DNA of 18,795 bases, from NCBI GenBank assembly GCA_048939465.1, contig JBHLPL010000032.1:1-18795 (forward strand), read 5' to 3'. The stretch comes from Promethearchaeota archaeon. Its GTDB lineage: Archaea; Asgardarchaeota; Odinarchaeia; Odinarchaeales; JBHLKK01. Under the pieces are notes generated by a model that was not told the DNA's origin, ran no database searches, and saw only the letters and a program-made list of their open reading frames with translations. The translations under genes were made by a program, and so were the position numbers. Below, piece by piece: positions 3,509 to 17,454 of this stretch. How positions within the stretch are numbered: the stretch's first letter is position 1; the number at the start of each line of letters is the position of its first letter.

Positions 3509-4852
3509 ATGAATTTGAATGTTAAGAAACTCGCAATATTATCCGCCATAACTGTACTATCTCTTACTGGATATCTCATACTCTCATCGATATCGTTTCT
3601 CCTGCCGCTGATTCTGTCTGGTCCTATTGTTATTGCGACCAAAGAACCCCCAAGTGAATATGACATCCTCTTAAAGAAGGCCAAAAAGCAACTAAAGAAA
3701 AGCCAAGTTGAAGTCTCCAAGTTATTACAAACATACAAGGAGATAGCTGGAGACCTGTTAGTTGAGGTCTCGCTACTGGATTTTGGTCGAAAGAAGGAAG
3801 ATGCTACTGCAGAGGATGGATTTAAAGTCTACGATATGGAAAGCTCTCATGCAGGACTGAACTTCCACTCACGTGATGAGCAACTCAAGGCTTTGAAGTA
3901 TGAGGCAAAAGCAATAATTGAAAGCCTAGCAGAGCTGGACAATGTCCCTCGAGATGCTCTGATAGGTAAGCAGGTTGAACCTCCCGTTAAGGTGAAAAAG
4001 GATAAGAATCTCGTTTCTTCTGGTATACCCAGACTGGACGTTGCCTTGGGCGGAGGATTTCCCAGGGGTTCCTCGATACTGCTCGTCGAAGATACCGGTA
4101 CCGGTGGGGATATATTTAGCTATCAATTTCTGCAGAATGGATTTGAATCCGGAGAAAGTGGATACTGCTTCTCAACGGACTTGGCCCCAAACCTCATCGT
4201 CAAAGAGTTGGAACGTAGAGGGATGAATACAGATTCATACGATAAGAAAGAGAGATTCATCCTTCTGGACGCCTACACCTACCCCGCCCTGATTACAAGA
4301 AAAACCATTAAGAAAGGCAGTAAGAAGAAAAAGAAAGAAAAAACCAAGCCCGAGGAATCCTCTGAAGTCTCTGTATCTGCCGATCCACGAAAGGTTGTAA
4401 CACTAATTACGACAATCCTTAATAAACTGGGCAAAAAGAAGATCAGAGGTTGCTTCTACACATATACAACCTATATCATGGGTCTGAAAGCAGACGATGC
4501 TATTAACTTGTTCCGTCGCCTGAGAGTTCTCGATAAAGAGTGTAACTCTACAAGCATCTATGTCGTCCACAAAGGACTGCACAACACAAGAATCATGGCA
4601 AGTCTGGAGCATATGGCCGATGGCGTTGTTGAGCTTTCTGTCAAGGAAGGTATTAAGGGCCAGCTGGAAAGATACATCAGGGTGCGCAGTATGAGAGGCC
4701 GTGACTTTGATGATGCTCCTATTCCCTACAATGTCTTGGGAAGGGATATCCGACCGATGGAAGACACTCAGATACGCCACAAGGCCCCTGAGGAATCAGA
4801 GATTGATATTGAGAAGGTTAAGGCTAAGCTCAATTCCTTCTATGAATCCTAG
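3509..4852 (+). CDS. Membrane-anchored KaiC/RAD55-like (RecA-superfamily) protein with degenerate Walker motifs
   Basis: N-terminal TM helix. SSGIPRLDVALGGGFPRGSSILL and ADGVVELS...RYIRVRSMRG are KaiC/RAD55 hallmarks. Walker A reads EDTGTGGD (no Lys) and the Walker B position lacks Asp. RBS GGAGGGTG upstream; 9 nt after the previous stop. Confidence 0.85.
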   Translation: MNLNVKKLAILSAITVLSLTGYLILSSISFLLPLILSGPIVIATKEPPSEYDILLKKAKKQLKKSQVEVSKLLQTYKEIAGDLLVEVSLLDFGRKKEDATAEDGFKVYDMESSHAGLNFHSRDEQLKALKYEAKAIIESLAELDNVPRDALIGKQVEPPVKVKKDKNLVSSGIPRLDVALGGGFPRGSSILLVEDTGTGGDIFSYQFLQNGFESGESGYCFSTDLAPNLIVKELERRGMNTDSYDKKERFILLDAYTYPALITRKTIKKGSKKKKKEKTKPEESSEVSVSADPRKVVTLITTILNKLGKKKIRGCFYTYTTYIMGLKADDAINLFRRLRVLDKECNSTSIYVVHKGLHNTRIMASLEHMADGVVELSVKEGIKGQLERYIRVRSMRGRDFDDAPIPYNVLGRDIRPMEDTQIRHKAPEESEIDIEKVKAKLNSFYES

Positions 4853-4858
4853 GGCTCA
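4833..4858 (+). other. Weak candidate 26-nt BHB intron spanning the stop codon of the KaiC-like gene
   Basis: Central helix AGCU(4827-30)/GGCU(4853-56), CAA bulges on both strands, 2-bp flanking helices containing G.U, GCTCAAT direct repeat. Excision gives ...KLNDD* (stop 4867-69). Confidence 0.3.
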
Positions 4859-5000
4859 ATGACGACTAGCAGCAACTTTTGAGTAGAGGAGCTTTGGGAT
4901 AAAACACATCCCCTTTCAGTTTTCTGATATTCTCTCACTGTCCAGTGGTTGTTATCCCCTTCTTTGTCTGATGTGAGAAAACCTCTTCCCGCAAGGAACT

Positions 5001-5016
5001 AAAAAAACATATAAGT
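5001..5016 (+). promoter_or_regulatory. Putative BRE/TATA promoter of the Yip1-domain gene
   Basis: A-tract followed by CATATAAG about 50 nt upstream of the TTG start. Confidence 0.5.
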
Positions 5017-5062
5017 TAATGATTCCCTTTATTCCATAGCTAGAAACGGACGGGATAAGAAC

Positions 5063-5752
5063 TTGAGTGATGAAAAAGTCGAGATTGAGAGGCTCAAGGA
5101 AGAATTGGAAAGCATCCGGTCTCAGATTCAGTATCTGAAGGAGCGAGCCGCTCGTGGAGAGATATCCACTCTGGATTTCGTAGGTGAGAAGAAAAGGCTG
5201 GAAGCAATCTTACTGCGTCTGATTAGAAAGCTGGATGAGTTTAAAGGAGAGGTACCTCCTACCCCGCCTGCGCCTCCTCTGTTTGGTAAGGTCATGGGTG
5301 TCTTATCAGTAGACGAACTCTGTTATAGGCAAATCCTGAATGATGATACGGGAGCCGCCGTAGGCATTGCCTTTCTAGTAATCGGCAGCTTGCTGCTGGG
5401 CGTAACTGCAAGTCTATCTACGTTGCCCTTGATCGGTCTATTGGATCCGAGAATCAGAGCTATTGTCGGGTTTGTAGGCCCTCTGGCTCTGGGCTTGGTC
5501 TTTGCCAAGGTTGTAGGGGGTTCGAAGGGAATATCGCTCTCCAGAAGCATATCCCTTATTGGCTTTGCCTCATCCCCCCTGCTATTCCTCGTAATCTGGT
5601 TGGCATTCCATTTCCCCCTCGTTCCGTATACAAACGAACTTACTGTGATGGCAGCCAACATTATTACAGCATTGATTCCTTTGGCCTGGACAATTATTGC
5701 TGAATTCAAAGCTCTGGGTGTAATGTCAAAGGAATCCCTGCAAAGAACTTGA
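5063..5752 (+). CDS. SHOCT-like/coiled-coil + Yip1-domain membrane protein (possibly extends to 5907 after splicing)
   Basis: N-terminal QYLKERAARGEISTLDFVGEKKRL resembles the SHOCT pattern; Pro linker; Yip1-like start LFGKVMGVLSVDELCYRQI followed by four TM helices. The unspliced ORF lacks the usual last Yip1 helix. Confidence 0.7.
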   Translation: MSDEKVEIERLKEELESIRSQIQYLKERAARGEISTLDFVGEKKRLEAILLRLIRKLDEFKGEVPPTPPAPPLFGKVMGVLSVDELCYRQILNDDTGAAVGIAFLVIGSLLLGVTASLSTLPLIGLLDPRIRAIVGFVGPLALGLVFAKVVGGSKGISLSRSISLIGFASSPLLFLVIWLAFHFPLVPYTNELTVMAANIITALIPLAWTIIAEFKALGVMSKESLQRT

Positions 5753-5772
5753 ATGGAAAACCGGGGCCTTCT
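5735..5772 (+). other. Candidate 38-nt BHB-like (bulge-helix-loop) intron in the Yip1 gene
   Basis: Central helix AAGG(5729-32)/CCUU(5767-70), AAU bulge, 5-bp intron stem CCCUG/CGGGG. Excision joins GAA|TCG in frame to SFIMYLFVSIIGF..., stop 5905-07. Confidence 0.5.
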
Positions 5773-5899
5773 TCGTTTATCATGTACTTATTCGTTAGTA
5801 TAATCGGCTTTTCTAAACTAAGCTACTCATCGATATGGTTAAATAACATCAAACATAAAGAGGTTAGTAGTAAAACCGGACAAATCAGTGTGAGTTACC

Positions 5900-6571
5900 A
5901 TGACTAGTGGTGAAATTAAAGCAGGGATAGTGATATCGTCGATTCTCAAAGAATTCCCTGAGATTTATATAAGCAGAGAGAAGGATTCAGGTGGTGCAGC
6001 AAAGTATCGAGTAGAGAGCCCGGAAGCATCCTTATGCGAATTCACGATCTCAAATGAAGAAATAAAGATCGCATCAGACTCTAGCTTTGGTGGAGGAGAA
6101 AAGGAGAGTGCAATCAGACACCAAATAGAAAGTCTTCTGAAGACGCTCAAGATTCCTTCTGAAGCTCTTGAAATGCCCGCTGCAAAAGCCGTGGCGTTTT
6201 CAACCCCATCCATGCAAGCTACGTCCGTAGCGGCACCCCCACCAGCTCCGGCCCCTACAGTACCGACGGCCGAATCAGATGCACCAGGTACAAAACCACT
6301 TGATATCAATGGAGTCCAGTTCATGCCTATCACAGGCTTGGTTCCCATACCTTCGACGTCCTATGTTGCCCAAATCGGGAAGATAGGCGATTCTTGGGGA
6401 GTTGGAGTATTTAGAGGAAGGCGAAGCATAGGGATTGAAAGAGTCTCCGAGCTCGAAAAAAACCTAGTTGTAGGTGCCATGCAGAAAATTATTGTCATTC
6501 CGCTGTTTTCCCCCTATGCAATGTCAAGAGCTGTTGATCGCCTAATGAAGATGGCCAGAGAACCAGAATAA
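5900..6571 (+). CDS. Hypothetical two-domain protein with Pro/Ala-rich linker
   Basis: 223-aa ORF with natural composition; two globular-looking segments separated by AAPPPAPAPTVPT. Confidence 0.8.
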   Translation: MTSGEIKAGIVISSILKEFPEIYISREKDSGGAAKYRVESPEASLCEFTISNEEIKIASDSSFGGGEKESAIRHQIESLLKTLKIPSEALEMPAAKAVAFSTPSMQATSVAAPPPAPAPTVPTAESDAPGTKPLDINGVQFMPITGLVPIPSTSYVAQIGKIGDSWGVGVFRGRRSIGIERVSELEKNLVVGAMQKIIVIPLFSPYAMSRAVDRLMKMAREPE

Positions 6572-6753
6572 TCAGATTATGATCCTCCAAAAGGCTCCAG
6601 TGTTCCATTCTCTCCTTGCTCCGACTTATTTTCGTCCCAGTCTGTCCGCCAATTCCAGAAAGCGATACGACCTGACATCTGGAATTCTTCACCGACCTCC
6701 TCCTTCTGCTTTAGGATTCTAGAATCCAAAGAAGTGGACAGACAAGGCCGTGG

Positions 6754-7452
6754 TCACCCTATCTCTCGGACTGAGCCTCCTTTTGTCACGTACGGGATCC
6801 AGTTCGAAGGAGGGACGCTTAGTCTTCTCTTAATTCTAAGCATGGGCCGCTCTTTACCTTCATACTCTCTAATCCTGAATTCCATTGCAACATCTGCGCT
6901 ATACTCTATCATCCTTGCGCATTTCTCATCCACGCTTTCTGGAACCAGTAAAAACACGATGCAGCCATACTTTTTGGTAATCTCTCGCATAAGCAAACCG
7001 AAGCCGACTGCATGTCGGAGAGTAAAAAGAGTGGATAGAGTCAGCATTGAATCTACCACACATACGGTCCTGTCTTTCATTTTTCCTTCAGTTATTTCGT
7101 TGATCTCTCTGAAGGCTTTCATGACCTCACGACCGCTGGAAGGATTTGTTATAGTAAGAGGGGCGGTTTTTTCGGCAAACTTGAAGCAGTTTACAAAGAA
7201 AAGCTTCTGCTCTTCTTCAAACTTCGTCGCGATTATTCCAGAGATCTTCAACTGTTCTCGCAGTAGGTCAGGAGAGTGACCGAAAGACATGATTACGCCA
7301 TAATTGCCCTTCTCTAATTCATGAGAGATTATGCTGGAAACCAGTGTCCATCCACTAGCCGTTGAAGTATCATTCATGGCTACAAGACTCTGTTGCGGAA
7401 ACCCTCCCCCGAGCAGTTTATCCAGAACGGGGAAATGTGTTTTTAGCCTCAA
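6754..7452 (-). CDS. Stand-alone KaiC/RAD55-like protein with degenerate Walker A (possibly extends to 6577 after splicing)
   Basis: KTHFPVLDKLLGGGFPQQS; Walker A reads NDTSTASG; Walker B VCVVDS is intact; IEYSADVAMEFR. TTG start with GGGAG upstream. Confidence 0.85.
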   Translation of the reverse strand: MRLKTHFPVLDKLLGGGFPQQSLVAMNDTSTASGWTLVSSIISHELEKGNYGVIMSFGHSPDLLREQLKISGIIATKFEEEQKLFFVNCFKFAEKTAPLTITNPSSGREVMKAFREINEITEGKMKDRTVCVVDSMLTLSTLFTLRHAVGFGLLMREITKKYGCIVFLLVPESVDEKCARMIEYSADVAMEFRIREYEGKERPMLRIKRRLSVPPSNWIPYVTKGGSVREIG

Positions 7453-7589
7453 TTTAGACTCCCGGTCAATTAAATTGTCTACTCATCCAGTATCTCATTC
7501 ATTGTATAATTGTCTTTTCATCTTGAATAAGGGCTGGAGATTCCATTCTTAAGAGTGGGCAAGAAAGCTAGCTTCTAACCAATGTTGAG

Positions 7590-7597
7590 TTTTAAAG
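7590..7597 (+). promoter_or_regulatory. Putative TATA box for the candidate ncRNA
   Basis: TTTTAAAG about 25 nt upstream of the GC-rich structured block starting near 7620. Confidence 0.4.
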
Positions 7598-7619
7598 TTT
7601 TGATACCGGTTGATAACGT

Positions 7620-7830
7620 GGGTGGAGCGTTAAGACGACTGTCATCGCTGCCAGATCAGCTCTGGTGCGGGAGCATTTTCAAAGTCCCGCCCTCTTTCCC
7701 AGTTTGCTAGAACGGGAGTCTCGGTAAACAGGCTCTTTCGTGCGCGTGATGAAGTTCCAAAGTGGTGTGGTACACTATACTTGGCCCCTGACGAAAGACT
7801 CCACGCGATAGCTGGAAGCGGTTGACATTT
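7620..7830 (+). ncRNA. Candidate unclassified structured RNA with a box C/D-type kink-turn
   Basis: Closing stem GUGGAG/CUCCAC; hairpins CCAGA/UCUGG, GCGGGA/UCCCGC and UCCC-GUUU/GAAC-GGGA; stem CUUUCG/CGAAAG flanking GUGAUGA(7746-52) and CUGA(7788-91). No ORF >60 aa in the track; upstream TATA, downstream T-rich tract. Confidence 0.5.
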
Positions 7831-8008
7831 AGTTTTCTCTCAGTCCTTTTGTGCTCTCAATAGTGCGTACTGACGTCAGGAAGTTGAGTTACGCATGGAA
7901 AGTTCTTTATATTGATACAGCAAAGCTTTAATTTCATAAACAGACATTTATACCGAATATCCCAAATATTTTACAGGAAAGAATGATTATCTCACGGGGA
8001 AGGCAAAA

Positions 8009-10770
8009 ATGGGAAAATCCAAATCCATTTCTTCTGTTGCGGTCTTATTCTTAATGCTCGCTCCGATTTTTCTGGCGGGCTCAGTCTATGGTATTGAACC
8101 AGGTATTCAGACTGAAAATCAATGGAGCCCATACTATAAGTTTCGCAGAATGGTTACAATAACCGAGCCAGGTATCTCTGATAGAATTCTTGAACCCGTA
8201 GATGTCTATCTGACCTTTCCACAGGAACAAGCAATCGTAAACAGTTGCAGAGTAGTTTACTTCAATGGTACTGCATGGAACGAAGTTACTAGTCAGGTCT
8301 GGAACGAAACAACATACATGGATTTAGGATCTACATATTACAACTCGTGCACCGTAACGTTCTTAGCCAACGTGACAGAGTCCACCCAGAAAATCTACTA
8401 CGTGTATTACGATGACGCGAACAATACAGCTCCAGACTATAACAGCAGAATTTGGGCGGTCGTTAGGAATAGTTCAGCTCCAGTGGACGAGTATTACCCC
8501 TGGATATTTGACAACTCCACGGGCACAAACTATACTTACTCAGATCTTATTGAAATAAGGACACCGATCGCAAATGAGACCGCCTCTATCATTCTGTCAG
8601 ACACCACGAGACCCGGATCCGACTGGGGCGGTCCCGTATGTGGCTTAATAACAGCGAAGTATAACGACTCGCTTGCTCTGAACACCTACGACGGATATAG
8701 GGCGAGTTCATTCATGTTTGTAGGGGAATTTGCCATAGATCCCTTCAATATGGATTCTACTGACGCAAGTATTTACAGGGTCAATGTGGGGCCTAACAAT
8801 CCGGCTGAGGCATGGATACCAGAGGGAGGAAGCGTGTATATTGAGCAAAACGGTCCGCTTTTTGTAGTTATAAGAATCAAGACAAGCGACGGTGGATATG
8901 AAAACGGAGCTTGGACAGTAAACGGAACGTCTGTGAGTTATACTGGGCATACGGATTCCTATTACCCATCAATGATTCCAGCTAATCATGGAAGCGGATT
9001 CTTCAATTACACATATACTTATCGGTTTTATTATCATGGATGTAACCTTCTGGCCGAACTGGATCAGAAGATTCAGGTAAACGTTCAAATCCCAGGAGCC
9101 GGGGCCTATGTTAAGAACTACGGTGATTGGCCTCACGTCTTAACCTTTACAGCGAATTCATCGGTCGAAGCAGCCCTGCAGAATCAGCATGCTTGGTACG
9201 GATCAAAATACGGTCTATACAATGAATCCTCAAGCTCCAAGCGAAGGGATTTCCCGATTGAACCTTGGTCTGCATGGTACGATAATGAATCTGGCAGCGA
9301 CCCCTCAATTGGAATTATTACTACAAACGATACAATTGGCTGGGAAGTATTGTCGCTTGTTGTTGGTGGCATAGGACCAAATATTATGCTTCAGCAAATC
9401 CTGAGAGAGGGCCACCAAGGGGATTTATATCTTATGCAGAATGGAACGGTTTTCACTTACCACTATTACATATACACATCGGCCTTTGGAACCAACTTCA
9501 CCGAAATAAGGAACATGGCATTCCAACTCAATGATCCTCTGAGCGTCTCCCTAAAAGATTCAACTGTTATGACAGTTGCCCCATCTATAACTCCCGTTAT
9601 GATGATCGCCAGCGAAGAAACAGCATTCACGGTAAATTTCACGGATCCGGGAACTAATGAACTGATTACGAACGCAATGGTTGAATATCACGCTGATTGG
9701 CAACCTGCAGGAACATGGACTATCATGTTTGAATCAACGCCTGGGGTATCGGGCGAATATCAAAGAAACATAGCCGCCCCCTCAGATCTGGGGTCTCACA
9801 GTATTACGATAAGAGCAGTAAAATCTGGCTATCCCACCGCGTCTCATACTATCGATGCGCAGATTCTGGCAAAAACCACGATATCTGGGCCTCTTGCCCT
9901 TAGCGTTCTCATAGGTGAAAACAAGACTGTTACCGTAACGTTGATGCGCACTGATCGGGGAGTTCAAGAGCCGATTGATGATGCGAATATAACTATTAGT
10001 GGCTGGAATGGAACACACGTTGTCACCCCGCTTGGAAACGGTCAGTACAGTGTGTCGTTTTACACAACAGGACTTGATGAATCCGATGTTGGGACATATG
10101 ATGTTAGTGTTACAGCCAGTAAAACAGACTATCAGAATCAAACAATCCTGATTGGAGTAACTGTAAGCTCACCACCAGGACAACCAGTCATAGTCTCATT
10201 CGACTGGCTGATAATCATCGTACTGTCGGCAGGGCTGGTGAGCGCAGTGGGTTACTCGTTATGGAGCAGCTACCTCCGTTATCCGCCAATAGTCAGGAAG
10301 ATCAGGAAACTGCACAAAGCCATAAGGAAGGACAGACCCCCCGCAAAGTCAATAGACGTAAAGGGAAGAGATGTTCTGGTGCATGAAACGTATCGTAAAA
10401 CAGCCGGGGAACCACCAAAAGTATCGAGAAAGGAAGTCCCTGAAGAACCTCCCATAATTGTTTCACATGAGCCGGATGTCGAATTATCGCACCCTCCCCC
10501 GGATGAAGCATCGCCTACCGAGGAGGTTGTTGAGGAAATGCCCCCAGAGGAGACTGAGGGAGCGCCTCCGGCAGAAACTGAAGAGATACCGAGGGCCGAA
10601 GAACCAGAACCTCCACCGGAGACAACTCCTGAAGAAGAGTAGCTTCATCGGGAACTGGTGAGACCGAGGGACCCATCAGATCTTTGAGGGAAGAAGTGTT
10701 ACACGAACTTCTCGGACTGCCTCCAGAAGAATGTAGAACGTTGCCTGAATCGATGAAAACGAAGGATTGA
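8009..10770 (+). CDS. Type I membrane surface glycoprotein (signal peptide, DUF2341-like N-domain, Ig-like domains, TM, acidic Pro-rich cytoplasmic tail). Unspliced 8009-10642 (877 aa); spliced join(8009-10635,10650-10770) 915 aa
   Basis: Signal peptide; RRMVTITEP...EPVDVYLTF...YYVYY N-domain pattern; TM WLIIIVLSAGLVSAVGYSLW; basic YPPIVRKIRKLHKAIRK segment; E/P-rich tail. Second exon inferred from the BHB intron. Confidence 0.85.
10636..10649 (+). other. 14-nt BHB intron containing the TAG stop codon
   Basis: UCC/GGA exon helix, UGAA/UUCA central helix, GAA and UCG 3-nt bulges, one G-C closing pair. Canonical cuts join GA|G in frame to a 39-aa protein-like tail. Confidence 0.7.
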
Positions 10771-10836
10771 AGGACAGCTTCGCAGAAAAGGAACTAGCGG
10801 TTAATCTGAAGTATCATCGACGTTTGAAATCAGACT

Positions 10837-10899
10837 GGGTGGTGGGTTGGACTGAGCAGGGACGAAAGAGAAAACGGCTCTGATGATTCCACTCCCCCC
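10837..10899 (+). promoter_or_regulatory. Hairpin with kink-turn over the likely translation start region of the glycosyltransferase gene
   Basis: CUGA(10852-55)-GC.../GC-UCU-GAUGA(10877-86) K-turn geometry; G-rich 10837-51 can pair with the C-rich 10888-99 tract. Confidence 0.35.
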
Positions 10900-10971
10900 C
10901 TTTCGAGACTTTTTAGAGAACTCTCAAACAGAAGACTGAATGACCTATTCCTGATTTCAGCTTCTTTTATC

Positions 10972-12948
10972 GTGATACTCTCTATCGATTTTCTGATTGA
11001 TCTGGGTGTTTTTTTCGGCGTCATCGTGCTGCTTTGTTTGGGTTACGTGTTCTCAGAGATGTTCTCAGGAAGAGAAAGGACCTTTATGGAAAAACTGGTA
11101 ATCAGCTTTGGAGCTGGAATGATACTCGTTATCATGACTGCAATCTTCTCTTCGCTCCTAGATCTCTGGCATATAATCGACGTTCTGCTGATCGCGGAGT
11201 TCTTCTTCTTAATACCCATTGTCATCTTTAAGCGATTGATCTTGAAGCATCAAGGAGGCTGTACTGCTCCCACCAAGTTTGAATTTGCCCTGATCCTTTT
11301 TATTATCTCTTTTGTTGTCATTCTATCCTTGCTAAGACATGCACCCTTTCACTCGAGGGACGAATATGCACATCTTTATGTAATTCGAAATCTGCTCCTC
11401 AACAAGTCCTTTGCTGAGGATTTTCCGATAGTGTCTGGTGAAAGCTTATGGGCGGGAGAAACATACGGAAGGTATTTCTTTGTCTACACTTATGCTGCAT
11501 TGGTGAAGTTCGGAGGACTCGACTTCTACTCAATAGAGCGCATTTCAATATTCTTTACAGCCATGATTATCCCGTCAGTGTATATCTTGGGAGCAAGGTT
11601 GTCTAAAGTCAAGAATGTTGAGTCCCAGTGGCTGGGTATTATTGCTGCTGTTTTCGTCAGCGTAAATCCTGCAATCGTATATTTTTCTATCAGGCTTTTC
11701 CCCGATCTACTTGCAGCAGCTCTTGTGATACCATCTCTTTTCTTTTTCATAAGCTGGAAAGACAAAGGATACAAAGAGGATATACTGAGTTGTGCCTTCT
11801 TTATCTTCTTGGCACTATTCACAAAACTTCACGGTCTAGTATTTCTATCAATTTTGGTAATCCTTGGAATAATAAGTCTTCAAGACAGGAGAAAGTCAGC
11901 CATCTTGCTCAGCCTTTGTATTCTGGTACTCATGTTTATTCTTGTTTTCGGATCGGAGATCCCTTTCCTAAGCGAAATAACTGTTCGTTTGCAGAATGTG
12001 GTTCAGACCCTTTATGAAAGCATGGCATCTATGGGCGAGACCATAGGTTCCATGTTTGTTCACACATATGGAGTCTATGGATACTTGGGGTATTACCCGC
12101 AGGCAGTGTTTGTGCTTCTCATATTGGGCAGTGGGTACTTCCTCCTTAATTACCCGAGAAAGCACATCTTGGTCCTATTCCTGCCGTTGGTTGCATACTT
12201 GGCTCTTTTCTGGTTTGGCTCATTCGGGGGAGGAACAAGGCACTTCTTACCGTGTTACCCGATACTGATGATACTTGCCGCAGAAGGAGCGTTGACGCTC
12301 ACAAAACGGGACTGGCTTGTTCCGACGATAATTGCCAGCGTCCCCCTTTTCCTTATCCTAGTAACCTCTCTATATCAGATCTCGGATTTACCTCTTTTGG
12401 GTATTCTCCCCTTCTACACAGCCATTATAGCATTCGTCGGCGGCACGCTAATAATCTCCAAAAAGATACTGGAAGGTCTGAATCTGAAGAATACGAGCAG
12501 TAAGATGATTTGGGGGATAACTGTAACGGTTTTGCTTGCTTCATCATTCAGTATCTACCAAAGCTATATTTTCATAAGCAACGGAGCGTACAGTGATAGT
12601 TTCTACCCTGACATTAACGTAGCAGGAGACTGGCTAAGGACAAACACCATGGTAAATGTTGTCATTCTCACAAACGGCTACGTTCCCCTGCCCTACTTCG
12701 CAGATTATCGTTCTGCCCGTGTTCCTCCCGAGACTGAGCAGGAGTTCTTAGACATAATAGAAAATGGTGAAGTCGACTATGTTGTTATTTTCACACAACC
12801 AATCCTAAGCGAGTTTGTGAAGTTTCCGTACTTGGAGAAATATATCGATATGCCAATCCCGGAAGCAGTGGAGATATTCCGCTACCACAATCCAACCATC
12901 ACACTATATAATGGGACATCATTCGTCATATGGAGAGTTATGACGTAA
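10972..12948 (+). CDS. Multi-pass GT-C fold glycosyltransferase (ArnT/PMT/GT39-like)
   Basis: More than 12 TM segments; luminal-loop acidic motif SRDEYAH; GGGTRHFLP motif; C-terminal domain GDWLRTNT...VILTN...YF...VDYVV. The frame is open upstream to 10828, so the true start may be earlier (CTG 10852?). Confidence 0.8.
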   Translation: MILSIDFLIDLGVFFGVIVLLCLGYVFSEMFSGRERTFMEKLVISFGAGMILVIMTAIFSSLLDLWHIIDVLLIAEFFFLIPIVIFKRLILKHQGGCTAPTKFEFALILFIISFVVILSLLRHAPFHSRDEYAHLYVIRNLLLNKSFAEDFPIVSGESLWAGETYGRYFFVYTYAALVKFGGLDFYSIERISIFFTAMIIPSVYILGARLSKVKNVESQWLGIIAAVFVSVNPAIVYFSIRLFPDLLAAALVIPSLFFFISWKDKGYKEDILSCAFFIFLALFTKLHGLVFLSILVILGIISLQDRRKSAILLSLCILVLMFILVFGSEIPFLSEITVRLQNVVQTLYESMASMGETIGSMFVHTYGVYGYLGYYPQAVFVLLILGSGYFLLNYPRKHILVLFLPLVAYLALFWFGSFGGGTRHFLPCYPILMILAAEGALTLTKRDWLVPTIIASVPLFLILVTSLYQISDLPLLGILPFYTAIIAFVGGTLIISKKILEGLNLKNTSSKMIWGITVTVLLASSFSIYQSYIFISNGAYSDSFYPDINVAGDWLRTNTMVNVVILTNGYVPLPYFADYRSARVPPETEQEFLDIIENGEVDYVVIFTQPILSEFVKFPYLEKYIDMPIPEAVEIFRYHNPTITLYNGTSFVIWRVMT

Positions 12949-13049
12949 AGACTTCTTAACTCAAGCCGGCGTGGATATTTGGCAGAGAGCAGTTCAATCC
13001 GAAACGCATATATTGGGTCTGCTCCAAATTGTCTTTAGGAGAAATTTGA

Positions 13050-13922
13050 TTGGTACTCCCTGATGTCCAATCAATCCATGATTATGGTGATTTTAGAGCT
13101 ATGGAGAAATCTTCCATGTCTGAAAAAGATGAAAGCAAACTTGAACACATTGCTGCTGGCATTGAGGAGTTGAGCGCGACATCTTCGGAACTGAAAATGT
13201 TTTTCAAGCAGTTTATGGATCACATGGCAGAGCAGCTGGGCGATATAATGAGTGCGATCGACTCAGTTAAGGCCGATATCACCAAACTTGGCCAGATTCC
13301 CGATGCTTTCGGTGAATCAGCAAAGCTCCTAGAAAAAGTTCAGAAGACACTGTCGGAGGAAGGCGTCCCCGCCGGTCAGGCCGGTGGCGCAGATCTTAGT
13401 GGATTCGAATCCAGAATCGAAGAGCTTGACAGTAGACTCGGAGGCATTGAGGGCGATGTAAAGTCAATTAGCAACGCTGTCACTGCATTAGGAAAAGCCA
13501 CAGCTGAAGTAATCAATAAGTTGTCTGGTATATCAGAAAAGGCAGCCGTTTCAACTGCGTCCGCTCCTGAACCTGCCCCGACTCCTGCCGTGTCTCCACG
13601 ACCCCCCAAACCTTCAAAGGCTGTAAGTCAGGCTACTGAGCCTGCCAGAGTAAAAATTGGCACTTCTACCGGTCCTGTTGCAGATATACTTGATGCGCTT
13701 GAAGCAGATATTCAGTCGGGGAAAACCGCGGAAGACCTGGCCAAAAGCTTCGAGGACTCCCGAGACCAACTGATGAAGCATATTTCATACCATCCAGCAT
13801 ACTTCGAAATGGGGAAGGTCATCAAAGCCCTCACGAAATATGGCGACAGCCCTCTTGATAAGAACTCGACAAAGCAGCTTATTGAAAAGATTGAGACCTG
13901 GAGAGAGCGTATGCGGACATAA
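13050..13922 (+). CDS. Hypothetical coiled-coil protein with Pro/Ala linker and C-terminal four-helix domain
   Basis: Heptad-rich N-terminal two-thirds, APEPAPTPAVSPRPPKP linker, ~80-aa helical C-domain. Start uncertain (TTG 13050 or ATG 13101/13116). Confidence 0.8.
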   Translation: MVLPDVQSIHDYGDFRAMEKSSMSEKDESKLEHIAAGIEELSATSSELKMFFKQFMDHMAEQLGDIMSAIDSVKADITKLGQIPDAFGESAKLLEKVQKTLSEEGVPAGQAGGADLSGFESRIEELDSRLGGIEGDVKSISNAVTALGKATAEVINKLSGISEKAAVSTASAPEPAPTPAVSPRPPKPSKAVSQATEPARVKIGTSTGPVADILDALEADIQSGKTAEDLAKSFEDSRDQLMKHISYHPAYFEMGKVIKALTKYGDSPLDKNSTKQLIEKIETWRERMRT

Positions 13923-13925
13923 TCT

Positions 13926-14889
13926 CTATATCCTTAATCCTTCTAATAGGGCAACCATTATTGAAGCTGCTGTCAAATCCGCTGTTGTCCCGGGATTCAA
14001 CAGCCCTTTTTTTTTGTTTAGCTGATCATCAAGCTTCCAAAGTAAGTCCGTTCCTTCTTGACTCAAAAGACCCCCTTCTTTGAGTATTATTCTTGCTTTC
14101 TTGCTTACAAGCTCTGCAGGTCCTTGACCAGCTTTTCTCTTTATTAAGGTATCTTGAACATGCGACAATATCGTAAGATAGGTGTGCACTGTTGCAATAT
14201 TGACATCATTTGTCTCTTTCAGTGTATCAAAGAAGGCTGGATATCCGATACCGAAGGTTATCTCGAAGTCTGTGACCCACTCTCGACTGACATCGTCCCA
14301 ATCTGAACTTATCTTAAATAAGTCAAGAAGTGTAATCTGACGTTCAAGGATATCAGATGTAGACCTAGAATCCGTTACGTCGAATTCGGGAGAATGACCA
14401 AGTCCACCAGGTTTTATTGCGGCTATGGCCTCGTATAACTCAACAGCATCTTGGGAAGTTGTATTTGTTAAGACATATCCAAGGTTTTCTCGCAGTCTCT
14501 TTGCATTTACGGTACCAGTTGCCAAGCTTATCCCTGCCGACACGCTAAGTGGGGACAATAGAAGGACAGTTCCGAGGTTTATGTTTCCTCCCCTTTGCCA
14601 CTTCTGTGTTTCTTCTACTGCCAGTCTCATATGCTTTCCGATTTCCACTTCTTCATATCTTTGACTCTGTGCGGCACTAACACCCTTCGTAGCTAAAGCT
14701 CGCATTTGGGGATTGATGGCAATGGCACCCGCTAAGAAATGTTCAAAGACTGTTTTGGCCGTATTCCTAGTTCGATGGACATTACCCGGTTTGCCGCCTC
14801 GCCACAGGTTTCGGCCATCCACTCACTTCCAAGAGTACGGCAAAACTAGCGCACTGAGCTACAAATTCTGCATCTTTTGAAACATTCAT
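13926..14889 (-). CDS. citG: Triphosphoribosyl-dephospho-CoA synthase (CitG) family protein, intron-containing: join(14889-14810,14790-13926), 314 aa
   Basis: Exon 1 MNVSKDAEFVAQCASFAVLLEVSGWPK plus exon 2 PGNVHR...GGNINLG...DTLIKRK...LNPGTTADLTAA give the complete set of CitG motifs. GGAG and TATA upstream of ATG 14889. Confidence 0.9.
14791..14809 (-). other. 19-nt BHB mRNA intron in citG
   Basis: Minus strand G-GCCG-AA|A-CCU-GUGGCG-AGG-CGGC-AA|A-C: 4-bp Watson-Crick central helix, two AAA bulges, 3-bp intron stem. Excision restores W-P-K-P-G-N. Confidence 0.9.
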
Positions 14890-14926
14890 CCTTATCTTCT
14901 CTCCGATAAGGGATTGAGTTTCACCT

Positions 14927-14934
14927 ATATTAAA
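14927..14934 (-). promoter_or_regulatory. Putative TATA box of citG
   Basis: TTTAATAT on the minus strand about 40 nt upstream of ATG 14889. Confidence 0.5.
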
Positions 14935-15094
14935 TATTAATATCTTCTTAGGCCTGCTCGCAACCCGCATGATTCTTTGGAAGTCCAGAACAGATACGCA
15001 CCGCATCACAAATTCTGCAGCAACACAGTCAATGTAAAACCAAAGACTGAGAGATCTATTCGAATTAAATCCGGGGGATCTTCAAAAGAAAAAT

Positions 15095-15120
15095 GAGTAA
15101 AAAACCTAGGTTTTTTACTC
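15095..15120. repeat. Perfect 26-bp palindrome overlapping the ferredoxin stop; possible terminator hairpin
   Basis: GAGTAAAAAACCTAGGTTTTTTACTC is its own reverse complement. Confidence 0.85.
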
Positions 15121-16459: not shown

Positions 16460-16978
16460 TTACTGTTCGACCAGCAGTTGTCTCTGTTTCTCCAGCATCT
16501 TTCCTCTCAATCTGACGATCAGCTTGCTAAGTAGCCCGTCTACCCCTTCACCTGTTTCAGCATTGGTTGGATGAACTGGAATCTCCGGCAGATCGACCAG
16601 CCTGTGGATTTGCTCAGGAGACAAAGCTCCCGAGATGTCTTGCTTATTTGCAGCTATAACACAGGGCATCTTCCCGCAATCCAGTTTGCAGAATATGCTC
16701 TTCGCCTTATCTATCGATTCTTGATTGCTACTGTCAACAACCAGTATCGCTCCATCTGCGCCCTCTGCGAGGACTTCGCTCACAATCGAGAGGTGCTCTT
16801 GCCCCGGCGTTCCGAAGAAATGTATCTTCAAATCATCATAATCTCTGCTTCCATAGTCCAAGCCTATGGTCGTTCCCGAATTCTCAATATTGATAGTCTT
16901 TCCTGTGCTCAGCCTTTGAACCATCTTTGATTTTCCTGATTTGTATGGACCAGTAACCAGTACCTTTAGATGGTGCAT
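16460..16978 (-). CDS. Small GTPase, MglA/ARF-like (COG2229-type)
   Basis: G1 GPYKSGKS, G2 GTTIGLDYG, G3 GTPGQ, G4 NKQD. Likely start ATG 16978 after GAGGAGG (the track starts at GTG 17011). Confidence 0.9.
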   Translation of the reverse strand: MHHLKVLVTGPYKSGKSKMVQRLSTGKTINIENSGTTIGLDYGSRDYDDLKIHFFGTPGQEHLSIVSEVLAEGADGAILVVDSSNQESIDKAKSIFCKLDCGKMPCVIAANKQDISGALSPEQIHRLVDLPEIPVHPTNAETGEGVDGLLSKLIVRLRGKMLEKQRQLLVEQ

Positions 16979-17109
16979 ATCATCCTCCTCAGCAATTCCC
17001 TCGTACCCCACCTTATGCTCGCACCATTGTTAAATATTTTTCGGGGGTGCTTGGACTCCTGAGAAGAAGAGCAAAGAATGGATCAGAATTTCCAGAATGC
17101 GTGACTCAA

Positions 17110-17454
17110 TCAGTATGATTTATACTTCTCTCTACGGTGGATCAAAAGCAAGTTAGTTTTGCCGCCTCCTGAAATAACTCTTAGACCCTCATTAACCTCT
17201 CGGATATGCAAGAATCTTTTTACATACGGACGGATTCTGGATTTCGTTAACGCTGAATCTGATGTAACGATGACATCATTCCCATCCCTGACAGAATTTG
17301 ATTTCGGGAGTTTCTCTCCTAAGAATTTTGTCAACTCTTCTACCATTGCATCGTTGTGTTCCGACAGCTGATCTGCGTTAACAACTATTGTTACGCTTTC
17401 CTTATTCTTTTTGGATTTCGGCAATTCAGTCACACTCTTACTGGAGTGAACCAC
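17110..17454 (-). CDS. rpl22e: Ribosomal protein eL22 (L22e)-like
   Basis: VIVTSDSALTKSRIRPYVKRFLHIREVNEGLRVIS aligns by eye with eukaryotic eL22 [35 protein letters not shown]; basic N-terminus. Start may be TTG 17424. Confidence 0.7.
   Translation of the reverse strand: MVHSSKSVTELPKSKKNKESVTIVVNADQLSEHNDAMVEELTKFLGEKLPKSNSVRDGNDVIVTSDSALTKSRIRPYVKRFLHIREVNEGLRVISGGGKTNLLLIHRREKYKSY

What the first reader, a model, noticed from the sequence alone, without database searches (positions are those of the whole stretch)
4833..14809. Possible widespread EndA-dependent mRNA splicing: up to five tRNA-type micro-introns in 10 kb, four spanning stop codons
Seen: candidates of 14, 19, 26, 33/42 and 38 nt in unrelated genes; one is required for function (citG), the others sit over stop codons and would swap C-termini. 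Established: BHB introns are typical of archaeal tRNA/rRNA and only sparsely documented in mRNA (cbf5). Inference: this lineage may have an expanded, spliceosome-independent mRNA intron repertoire that makes expression depend on EndA and an RNA ligase (e.g. RtcB). If the organism is Asgard, this bears on intron origins. Caveat: minimal BHBs occur by chance (see rejected items), so the non-citG cases need a statistical control.
Basis: inference. Interest (0 to 1): 0.88.

Follow-up and report, generated by a model that had tools for sequence, protein, structure and literature searches.

The report
tRNA-type intron splits Asgard citG
One of the five proposed micro-introns is very probably real: a 19-base tRNA-type intron that must be cut out of the citG messenger RNA of this Asgard archaeon, whose genome holds at least a dozen more like it; three of the four candidates lying over stop codons are chance look-alikes and the fourth is unresolved.

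Summary
The citG insert (14791-14809, minus strand) is real. It breaks the frame inside the conserved PKPGNVHR motif and folds as a 4-bp helix flanked by two AAA bulges. Cutting after the second bulge base restores the motif.

- All five citG genes of this class carry an insert at this codon (19, 19, 27, 25, 25 nt). About 16 genomes of other Asgard classes have none.
- With the insert removed, each gene gives a 314-316 aa CitG, with dN/dS of 0.10-0.14.
- Contigs from three other studies carry the insert as DNA.
- Two EndA paralogs and RtcB are present.

The stop-codon class fails its control. A motif of that quality spans 97% of stop codons, 98% of internal codons and 98% of shuffled flanks. 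Relatives refute 4833-4858, 5735-5772 and 6723-6764.

At 10636-10649 there is a real anomaly: a C-terminal domain, in frame in three relatives, is cut off here by TAG plus a 1-nt deletion. The proposed intron is weak and unshared.

Genome-wide, homology searches find 13-14 such inserts in at least 10 genes (EF-2, aIF5B, gatA, pyrG, ahcY and others). So the lineage-level inference holds, but not "five in 10 kb". No RNA data exist. This scan noted such introns before, in this and other genomes.

The parts
14810..14889 (-). citG exon 1: ATG 14889-14887 to the 5' splice site (MNVSKDAEFVAQCASFAVLLEVSGWPK, ending ...CCG AA)
   Evidence: Read. The same N-terminal peptide is in frame with the rest of the protein in intron-less orthologs. 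It is conserved in all five class members.
14791..14809 (-). 19-nt BHB intron (A CCU GUGGCG AGG CGGC AA)
   Evidence: An insert sits at the same codon in G001, G003, G004 and G006. It is present as DNA in contigs of four runs from three other studies, with no gap or joint. A motif-independent comparison with outgroup G011 re-finds it as 19 extra nt.
14790..14815 (-). BHB core: helix H 14812-14815 (GCCG) pairs with 14793-14796 (CGGC). Bulge 1 is 14809-14811 (AAA) and bulge 2 is 14790-14792 (AAA). Inner helix h' is 14806-14808 (CCU) with 14797-14799 (AGG). The loop is 14800-14805.
   Evidence: The minimum-energy fold recovers this geometry in 5 of 5 orthologs. 95.5% of pair cells are paired, against 20-48% when the partner is slid. 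The outer helix is not canonical: 1 adjacent pair, or UGG:CCG beyond a 3-nt offset.
13926..14790 (-). citG exon 2 (A CCG GGU AAU ... to the stop at 13926-13928)
   Evidence: Pfam PF01874 CitG, E 3e-64, profile 17-283 of 284. The spliced product is 314 aa.
10636..10649 (+). Candidate 14-nt BHL-type intron over TAG 10640-10642. Unresolved, probably not spliced.
   Evidence: H is UGAA:UUCA, the outer helix 3 bp, the inner helix 1 bp. The minimum-energy fold is a plain hairpin. G001 and L123 have no equivalent.
10650..10770 (+). Displaced C-terminal helical domain of the 877-aa protein (...EVLHELLGLPPEECRTLPESMKTKD, TGA 10768-10770), in another frame than ORF 8009-10642
   Evidence: The domain is contiguous and in frame in G003, G006 and L123. 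In the window it is cut off by TCG>TAG plus a 1-nt deletion about 15 nt downstream. In G001 it is cut off by an in-frame TAA 13 codons upstream.
5735..5772 (+). Rejected candidate (38 nt) over TGA 5750-5752
   Evidence: In L121 a 1-nt indel puts the supposed exon 2 in another frame. In L122 that exon holds an in-frame stop. The inner stem is not kept. The region holds a conserved TTAAATAA promoter-like box.
6723..6764 (-). Rejected candidates (33 and 42 nt) over TGA 6754-6756 of the KaiC-like gene
   Evidence: The ortholog in L122 ends at the same ...IG*. Its continuation has stops and is not conserved. Paralogs align to the last residue, 232.
4833..4858 (+). Rejected candidate (26 nt) over TAG 4850-4852 of the KaiC-domain gene
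   Evidence: The C-terminus NSFYES*, which the supposed intron would remove, is conserved in L121 with synonymous changes (TAT/TAC, TCC/TCT). The 3' strand of H is not conserved.

Best explanation

Inferred mechanism. The pre-mRNA folds into a 4-bp helix (GCCG:CGGC) flanked by two AAA bulges. The heteromeric (alpha-beta)2 splicing endonuclease cuts after the second base of each bulge. RtcB joins the exons, which rebuilds the AAA (Lys) codon and the motif WPKPGNVHR. The result is a 314-aa CitG. Without splicing only a 36-aa peptide would be made.

The intron was already present in the common ancestor of the class, as far as it is sampled. It is one of at least 13-14 such inserts in at least 10 genes of this genome.

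Three of the four candidates over stop codons are chance BHB-like motifs. The fourth coincides with a real truncation or fission of the 877-aa gene, which most likely is not repaired by splicing.

Shown: the sequence anatomy, conservation, purifying selection, presence of the machinery genes, and the statistics. Inferred: cleavage and ligation themselves.
For: - The frame break lies exactly inside the conserved PKPGN[VI]HR motif.
- The canonical cut restores it. The cut position agrees with PMC2738675.
- 5 of 5 citG genes in the class carry an insert at the same codon, of 19, 19, 27 (in frame, with TGA), 25 and 25 nt. H, both bulges and the base of h' are conserved, while loop sequence and length turn over.
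- About 16 other Asgard genomes have an uninterrupted gene.
- After BHB excision all five give 314-316 aa proteins. dN/dS is 0.10-0.14 within genera.
- G004 has bulge 2 = AUA. This still gives AA+A = Lys under BHB cutting.
- Four runs from three other studies show the insert as DNA, with no gap or joint.
- Two EndA paralogs and two RtcB genes are present. [quoted passage not shown]
- Motif-independent homology screens against G003 and G011 re-find citG. They add inserts in EF-2, aIF5B, gatA (2), pyrG, ahcY (3, with a 15-nt micro-exon), an amidohydrolase, a GTPase and others. Each has a BHB whose excision restores a conserved motif.
- Stop-codon control. Comparative refutations.
Against: - No double-sided compensatory change supports the helices, and only five sequences are available.
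- Folding energy is not lower than in shuffles for G000, G001 and G003.
- The outer helix h is not canonical, so this is a relaxed HBh' substrate.
- A motif-plus-ORF scan of the genome shows no excess of correct-cut over wrong-cut fusions. The repertoire is therefore visible only through homology.
Confidence: 0.85

Rival explanations
1. citG is a pseudogene. The 19-nt insert is a disabling insertion or duplication flanked by the AAACC repeat.
For: The frame is broken and an AAACC direct repeat flanks the insert.
Against: The same site is interrupted in 5 of 5 class genomes from two families. There is no other stop or frameshift over about 315 codons, and dN/dS is 0.10-0.14. Insert lengths differ while the BHB geometry is kept.
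Confidence: 0.03
2. The ribosome bypasses the insert. This could be a hop from AAA to AAA, as in phage T4 gene 60 or the yeast mitochondrial 'byps', or a programmed frameshift. The mRNA would not be spliced.
For: Matched AAA codons flank the 19 nt in four of five genomes. A hairpin lies between them. In G003 a TGA follows soon after the take-off site.
Against: In G004 the landing triplet is AUA, not AAA. BHB cutting still rebuilds AAA there. The precise 4-bp helix with two 3-nt bulges is conserved, which a hop does not need. A dozen other inserts in this genome share the BHB but not matched codons. A frameshift alone would leave 6-9 extra, non-conserved residues inside the PKPGN motif.
Confidence: 0.06
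3. The insert is an assembly or sequencing artefact of the MAG.
For: The window comes from a fragmented MAG (152 contigs).
Against: Independent contigs of four runs from three other studies cover 14287-15100 with no gaps and no joint. Four other genomes, one of them closed, have an insert at the same codon.
Confidence: 0.01
4. 10636-10649 is a genuine 14-nt bulge-helix-loop intron. Removing it deletes TAG and compensates the 1-nt deletion, which re-attaches the C-terminal domain to the 877-aa protein.
For: - The C-terminal domain is part of the protein in G003, G006 and L123.
- It still shows synonymous-type differences between species.
- Excision gives an open frame to TGA 10768-10770.
- H has 4 Watson-Crick pairs and the outer helix 3 bp. 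14 nt lies within the known 11-175 nt range of tRNA introns (PMC2738675).
- The broad-specificity EndA type accepts BHL motifs (PMC5829648).
Against: - The inner helix is 1 bp, and the minimum-energy fold is an ordinary hairpin.
- G001 has a different lesion, an in-frame TAA 13 codons upstream, with no BHB over it.
- L123 has nearly the same sequence in an intact frame, where excision would be harmful.
- By chance, 49% of stop codons allow an extension of at least 39 aa with motifs of this quality.
- Aligned GTG (window) and TTG (G001, L123) codons could start a separate 24-aa peptide.
Confidence: 0.18

Closest known systems
cbf5 pre-mRNA intron of Crenarchaeota (Watanabe 2002; Yoshinari 2006; Yokobori 2009, PMC2738675)
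   Same: [quoted passage not shown] - It sits inside a conserved catalytic motif.
- It is linked to a heteromeric, broad-specificity splicing endonuclease.
- It is gained and lost among lineages.
   Different: - The gene differs: citG here, plus at least 9 other genes in the same genome.
- The phylum differs: Asgard, not Crenarchaeota.
- Some genes have several introns, and one has a 15-nt micro-exon (ahcY).
- Splicing has been shown by cDNA for cbf5. Here it is only inferred.
Archaeal tRNA BHB introns, including the intron-rich tRNA sets of Asgard archaea (PMC11291895; PMC5829648)
   Same: The same motif, the same predicted enzymes (EndA, RtcB) and the same size range. This genome's tRNA genes are intron-rich too: 12 of the 15 that ARAGORN finds.
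   Different: The host RNA is an mRNA. The exon context has no tRNA body, so recognition must rest on the BHB alone.
BHB intron in the 5' UTR of Haloferax volcanii HVO_1309 (PMC7714728)
   Same: An mRNA substrate of the archaeal splicing endonuclease.
   Different: That intron lies in the untranslated leader, so it does not interrupt a reading frame. It was confirmed by circRNA-seq and in vitro cleavage. The enzyme there is not of the heteromeric, broad-specificity kind.
HAC1/XBP1 unconventional mRNA splicing (Ire1 cleavage; RtcB ligation in metazoa)
   Same: Spliceosome-independent, enzyme-catalysed excision of a short intron from an mRNA, which changes the reading frame. Ligation is by an RtcB-type ligase. 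This comparison rests on my own knowledge.
   Different: The nuclease is Ire1, which recognises twin stem-loops, not EndA with a BHB. That system is regulated by stress. Nothing here shows regulation.
Translational bypassing (phage T4 gene 60; mitochondrial 'byps')
   Same: A short non-coding insert within a coding sequence, flanked by matching codons, with a hairpin.
   Different: No RNA is cut in bypassing. Here the landing codon differs in G004 and the BHB geometry is conserved.

Membership tests
Archaeal BHB (splicing-endonuclease) intron: citG 14791-14809 | Two 3-nt bulges on opposite strands, separated by a 4-bp helix | tested here: met
   GCCG:CGGC with AAA and AAA. Kept in 5 of 5 orthologs: G:C or G:U, bulge 2 AAA or AUA. 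Recovered by the minimum-energy fold in 5 of 5.
Archaeal BHB (splicing-endonuclease) intron: citG 14791-14809 | Cleavage after the 2nd bulge nucleotide gives correctly joined exons | tested here: met
   Excision gives ...WPKPGNVHR..., identical to intron-less orthologs. Products are 314-316 aa in all five genomes.
Archaeal BHB (splicing-endonuclease) intron: citG 14791-14809 | Flanking helices h (outer) and h' (inner), as in the strict hBHBh' form | tested here: inconclusive
   h' is present: 2-7 bp among the five genomes. h has only 1 adjacent pair, or UGG:CCG beyond a 3-nt offset. This makes it a relaxed HBh' form, which needs a broad-specificity enzyme.
Archaeal BHB (splicing-endonuclease) intron: citG 14791-14809 | A splicing endonuclease of broad specificity and an RNA ligase are encoded | tested here: met
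   Two PF01974 genes with open frames of about 206 and 213 aa. Two PF01139 RtcB genes. The (alpha-beta)2 type with L1 loop in Asgard is taken from PMC5829648. The L1 loop itself was not checked here.
Archaeal BHB (splicing-endonuclease) intron: citG 14791-14809 | A spliced mRNA or a circular intron is observed | not testable with these tools
   No RNA run was listed for this DNA.
Archaeal BHB intron: candidate 10636-10649 | BHB or BHL geometry that is conserved in relatives carrying the same interruption | tested here: not met
   Inner helix 1 bp, not the minimum-energy fold. G001 carries another lesion with no BHB. L123 is uninterrupted.
Archaeal BHB intron: candidates 4833-4858, 5735-5772, 6723-6764 | The second exon is under coding constraint and the intron is dispensable in relatives | tested here: not met
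   The C-terminus inside the 'intron' is conserved. 'Exon 2' changes frame or holds a stop in close relatives. The continuation has stops and is not conserved.

The most novel reading that the evidence does not exclude
In this Asgard genus the tRNA splicing machinery may also act on facultative sites. The weak BHL motif at 10636-10649 would then be spliced in part of the transcripts. The result would be two isoforms of the 877-aa protein, with and without its C-terminal helical domain. That would be alternative mRNA splicing in an archaeon, arising by intronization of exon sequence.
Probability: 0.1. Interest if true: 0.9.

Novelty: new member of a known kind. Interest (0 to 1): 0.7.

Why it matters
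In the papers I could search, enzyme-catalysed (EndA/RtcB) splicing of archaeal protein-coding sequences is confirmed for one gene only, cbf5, in Crenarchaeota (PMC2738675; PMC7714728).

Here an Asgard archaeon carries such introns in citG and in at least nine other genes. Most are housekeeping genes: EF-2, aIF5B, GatA, CTP synthase, SAH hydrolase. One gene has three introns and a 15-nt micro-exon.

If RNA data confirm this, three things follow:
- Expression of core genes in relatives of eukaryotes depends on a spliceosome-independent splicing step.
- Gene callers mis-annotate these genes as split or broken.
- Gain and loss of mRNA introns can be studied in the lineage closest to eukaryotes.

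The negative result matters too. Minimal BHB motifs are so frequent, about one per 19 nt per strand, that motif-only claims of introns over stop codons carry no weight. Comparative evidence is needed.

Tried and rejected
- RNA evidence: no RNA holder was listed for the 10-kb stretch or for citG alone.
- Genome scan for relaxed or strict BHB motifs whose excision fuses open frames, with stop-to-stop frames and then with a hexamer coding score. Counts for the correct cut equal those for cuts shifted by 1 or 2 nt at every threshold. The background comes from same-strand gene boundaries. This route cannot count introns.
- Junction peptides against G003: 194 hits with the correct cut against 189 and 199 with wrong cuts overall. 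Only the subset with no gap in G003 shows a signal, 4 against 1 and 0.
- Covariation on the citG alignment: no double-sided changes.
- Folding energy against shuffles: not significant for three of the five.
- G003-specific short introns relative to G000: none that is clean.
- Rfam over the whole window at E <= 0.1: no match.
- Pfam at E <= 1 for ORF 5063-5752 ('Yip1') and for the 877-aa protein: nothing.
- ORF 5063-5752 has no homolog in 40 relatives. Only two close homologs turned up in the large protein collection.
55% of it was used.
- A BHB over the TAA of G001 was sought and not found.
Full report
**Context.** The window is contig C62 of a 1.96-Mb MAG: 152 contigs, 91% complete, 43% G+C.
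- A congeneric MAG is titled 'Candidatus Hodarchaeota archaeon' in its public record.
- The genome table used by the genome search places the window's genome in the same order and class as G003. G003 is a closed genome of 1,418,269 bp.
- That size equals the 1.418 Mbp published for Ca. Odinarchaeum yellowstonii LCB_4 (PMC9246712).
- The class name is therefore probably Odinarchaeia. That the organism is Asgard is not in doubt.
- The window's genes include two KaiC-family ATPases, an Arf/Ras-like GTPase, a ferredoxin, an ATP-grasp enzyme, a large Ig-repeat protein and citG.

**The citG insert: what the sequence shows.**
- On the minus strand, an ORF opens at ATG 14889, reads MNVSKDAEFVAQCASFAVLLEVSGWPKP and then runs into TAA.
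- The Pfam CitG match (E 3e-64, profile 17-283 of 284) lies in another frame and begins ...KPGNVHR.
- Intron-less orthologs in about 16 other Asgard genomes read LLEVSG[WFY]PKPGN[VI]HR without interruption. Exactly 19 nt (14791-14809) are therefore extra.
- The RNA reads UG GCCG AAA CCU GUGGCG AGG CGGC AAA CCGGG. That is a 4-bp Watson-Crick helix, two 3-nt bulges on opposite strands, and a 3-bp inner helix with a 6-nt loop.
- Cutting between the 2nd and 3rd bulge base is the rule documented for cbf5 (PMC2738675). It removes 19 nt and rebuilds CCG AAA CCG GGU AAU = PKPGN.

**The citG insert: comparative evidence.**
- The class holds seven species genomes. Five have citG, and all five carry an insert at this same codon: 19 nt (G000, G001), 27 nt (G003, in frame but with TGA) and 25 nt (G006, G004).
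- H, both bulges and the base of h' are conserved. The loop and the length of h' are not.
- On the alignment, 95.5% of pair cells are paired, against 20-48% when partners are slid. There is no double-sided compensatory change, only G:C to G:U and U:A to U:G. I therefore claim conserved geometry, not covariation.
- The minimum-energy fold recovers the helix-bulge-hairpin in 5 of 5. The energies beat shuffles only in G004 and G006.
- After BHB excision all five genes give proteins of 314-316 aa. dN/dS is 0.10-0.14 within genera, at dS of about 1. The gene has thus stayed under purifying selection while interrupted, which excludes a pseudogene.
- Contigs of four runs from three other studies cover the site with no gap and no joint. 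This excludes an assembly error.
- G004 has AUA as its second bulge. BHB cutting uses only its third base and still gives AAA (Lys). A ribosomal hop between matched AAA codons would not work there.
- The machinery is encoded: two EndA paralogs of about 206-213 aa open frames and two RtcB genes. Asgard EndA, LCB_4 included, is reported as the (alpha-beta)2 type with the L1 loop. That loop confers broad specificity for relaxed motifs (PMC5829648).
- This fits, because the citG motif lacks a canonical outer helix.

**The stop-codon class: statistics.**
- A relaxed HBh' motif (H of 4 bp with at most 1 G:U, h' of at least 3 bp, 17-120 nt) occurs 206,897 times in the genome. That is one per 19 nt per strand.
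A motif spans 97% of stop codons, 98% of codons 150 nt inside genes and 98% of stops with shuffled flanks.
- Excision allows an extension of at least 39 aa at 49% of real stops and 41% of shuffled ones. Strict hBHBh' motifs span 8%, 9% and 8%.
- Four such motifs among the nine or so genes of this stretch is what chance gives.

**The stop-codon class: case by case.**
- 4833-4858. The C-terminus NSFYES*, which would be removed, is conserved in the 87%-identical relative L121 with synonymous changes. The 3' strand of H is not conserved. The predicted product would merely end ...NDD*. Rejected.
- 5735-5772. In L121 a 1-nt indel puts the supposed exon 2 in a different frame relative to the gene. 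In L122 it contains a stop. The inner stem CCCUG:CGGGG is lost. The best-conserved block is a TTAAATAA box upstream of the next gene. There is no Yip1 Pfam hit, even at E <= 1. Rejected.
- 6727-6759 and 6723-6764. The ortholog in L122 ends at the same ...IG*, and its continuation holds stops and is not conserved. Paralogs align to the last residue. Rejected.

**10636-10649: a real anomaly with a doubtful explanation.**
- The 877-aa protein has an ortholog in G003, 56.5% identical over 876 aa. There an acidic linker runs in frame into a C-terminal helical domain...VLKELKGLTPEEVNEFL...*.
- The same holds in G006 and in L123, a species 76% identical.
- In the window the domain (...EVLHELLGLPPEECRTLPESMKTKD*, to 10770) is still recognisable. 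It is cut off by TAG, where L123 has TCG and G001 has TCA, and by a 1-nt deletion about 15 nt further on.
- In G001 the domain is cut off by an in-frame TAA 13 codons upstream.
- The proposed 14-nt excision would remove the TAG and compensate the deletion.
- Against it: the inner helix is 1 bp, and the minimum-energy fold is an ordinary hairpin. G001 has no BHB over its TAA. L123 has almost the same sequence in an intact frame.
- The more likely readings are two independent truncations in sister species, or a fission with a separate start at the aligned GTG/TTG codon. I give splicing about 0.18.

**Is mRNA splicing widespread in this genome?** By motif alone this cannot be shown. Fusions from correct cuts are no more frequent than fusions from cuts shifted by 1 or 2 nt, whether judged by open frames or by a hexamer coding score. 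By homology it can be shown.
- I compared all G000 open frames with those of G003 (whole genome) and of the outgroup G011 (55% of its genome). I asked where one protein of the other genome matches two adjacent G000 frames with at least 10 extra nt between them.
- This screen uses no motif. It re-finds citG (19 extra nt; E 5e-6 and 7e-94).
- The inserts it finds, each with a BHB whose canonical excision restores a conserved motif:

| Gene | Place in G000 | Insert | Restored junction |
|---|---|---|---|
| aIF5B | C69:18515 | 29 nt | REAGGI/TQHIGA |
| gatA | C77:44591 | 32 nt | NMDEFA/MGSS |
| gatA | C77:44413 | 29 nt | GSDTGG/SIRQP |
| EF-2 | C68 | 31 nt | EQERG/ITIK |
| pyrG | C116 | 31 nt | GGVMSGI/GKG |
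| amidohydrolase | C118:3291 | 27 nt | HTHAAM/TLLRG |
| GTPase | C113:448 | 24 nt | strict hBHBh' |
| ahcY | C118:377 | 32 nt | KWDFD/NIYGTGQS |
| ahcY | C24 | 30 and 22 nt | flank a 15-nt micro-exon |
| unnamed gene | C77:10778 | 17 nt | (not assigned) |

- gcvPA (C150:6525, 29 nt, YTPY/QAEISQG) is supported at motif level only.
- The total is 13-14 inserts in at least 10 genes. That is a lower bound of about one per 150 kb, not five per 10 kb.
- G003 shows no clean short introns of its own relative to G000. Most gains therefore seem specific to the window's family, while the citG intron is older.

**Literature and earlier notes.**
- In the library searched, confirmed archaeal mRNA BHB introns are cbf5 (PMC2738675) and a 5'-UTR intron in Haloferax (PMC7714728). 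The latter states that cbf5 was the only earlier example.
- A 2025 paper on these enzymes cites only the cbf5 work for pre-mRNA (PMC12397907).
- Asgard tRNA genes are known to be exceptionally rich in introns (PMC11291895).
- I found no paper on mRNA introns in Odinarchaeia.
- Earlier notes of this scan flagged gatA, gcvPA, mre11, eS30 and elf1 in this genome, and similar introns in many other genomes. I re-found gatA and gcvPA independently. I did not test mre11, eS30 or elf1.

**Verdict.** One of the five is a very probable intron, three are chance, and one is unresolved. The lineage-level inference is supported by sequence evidence but still lacks RNA proof.

Noticed in passing
window 10828-10971 (upstream of ORF 10972-12948): The protein-level conservation of the 658-aa ORF continues about 48 codons upstream of its first ATG/GTG/TTG, back to the stop at 10825 (...WWVGLSRDE...LSNRRLNDLFLIS). 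A TTG in G001 and L123 is CTG in the window. An 18-nt block, GGTGGTGGGTTGGACTGA (10838-10855), is invariant in three species. The start codon, or a missing first exon, is unexplained.
   Followed up: partly
G000 contigs C24 (about 7290-7370, minus) and C118:377: The ahcY gene (S-adenosylhomocysteine hydrolase) appears to hold three BHB introns. Two of them (30 and 22 nt, both with 4 Watson-Crick pairs in H and a 4-bp inner stem) flank a 15-nt micro-exon that encodes part of AAAEGHPSEV.
   Followed up: partly
G000 C31:2961-5708 (minus): One of the two RtcB genes has its Pfam match split (profile 1-57 and 45-426) by about 1.4 kb within one 973-aa open frame. The size fits an intein inside the splicing ligase.
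   Followed up: no
window 10505-10539: Contigs of all four independent DNA runs break here and continue with other sequence. The acidic linker of the 877-aa protein seems to vary in length or sequence among strains.
   Followed up: no
window 8009-10642: The 877-aa protein is 56.5% identical to its G003 ortholog over 876 aa, yet has no Pfam match even at E <= 1. It is a well-conserved protein of this class with unknown family.
   Followed up: partly
window 16460-17454 (minus): An Arf/Ras-like small GTPase (183 aa) lies beside a 114-aa ORF without a clear family. This is a typical Asgard 'eukaryotic signature' neighbourhood.
   Followed up: no
whole genome G000: ARAGORN finds only 15 tRNA genes, 12 of them with introns. 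This suggests many tRNA genes are too disrupted, by multiple or non-canonical introns, to be detected.
   Followed up: no
window 6701 and 10755: Minor-depth contigs of run X3 show single-base insertions (C after 6701, A after 10755). These are strain variants or errors, and neither lies in citG.
   Followed up: no
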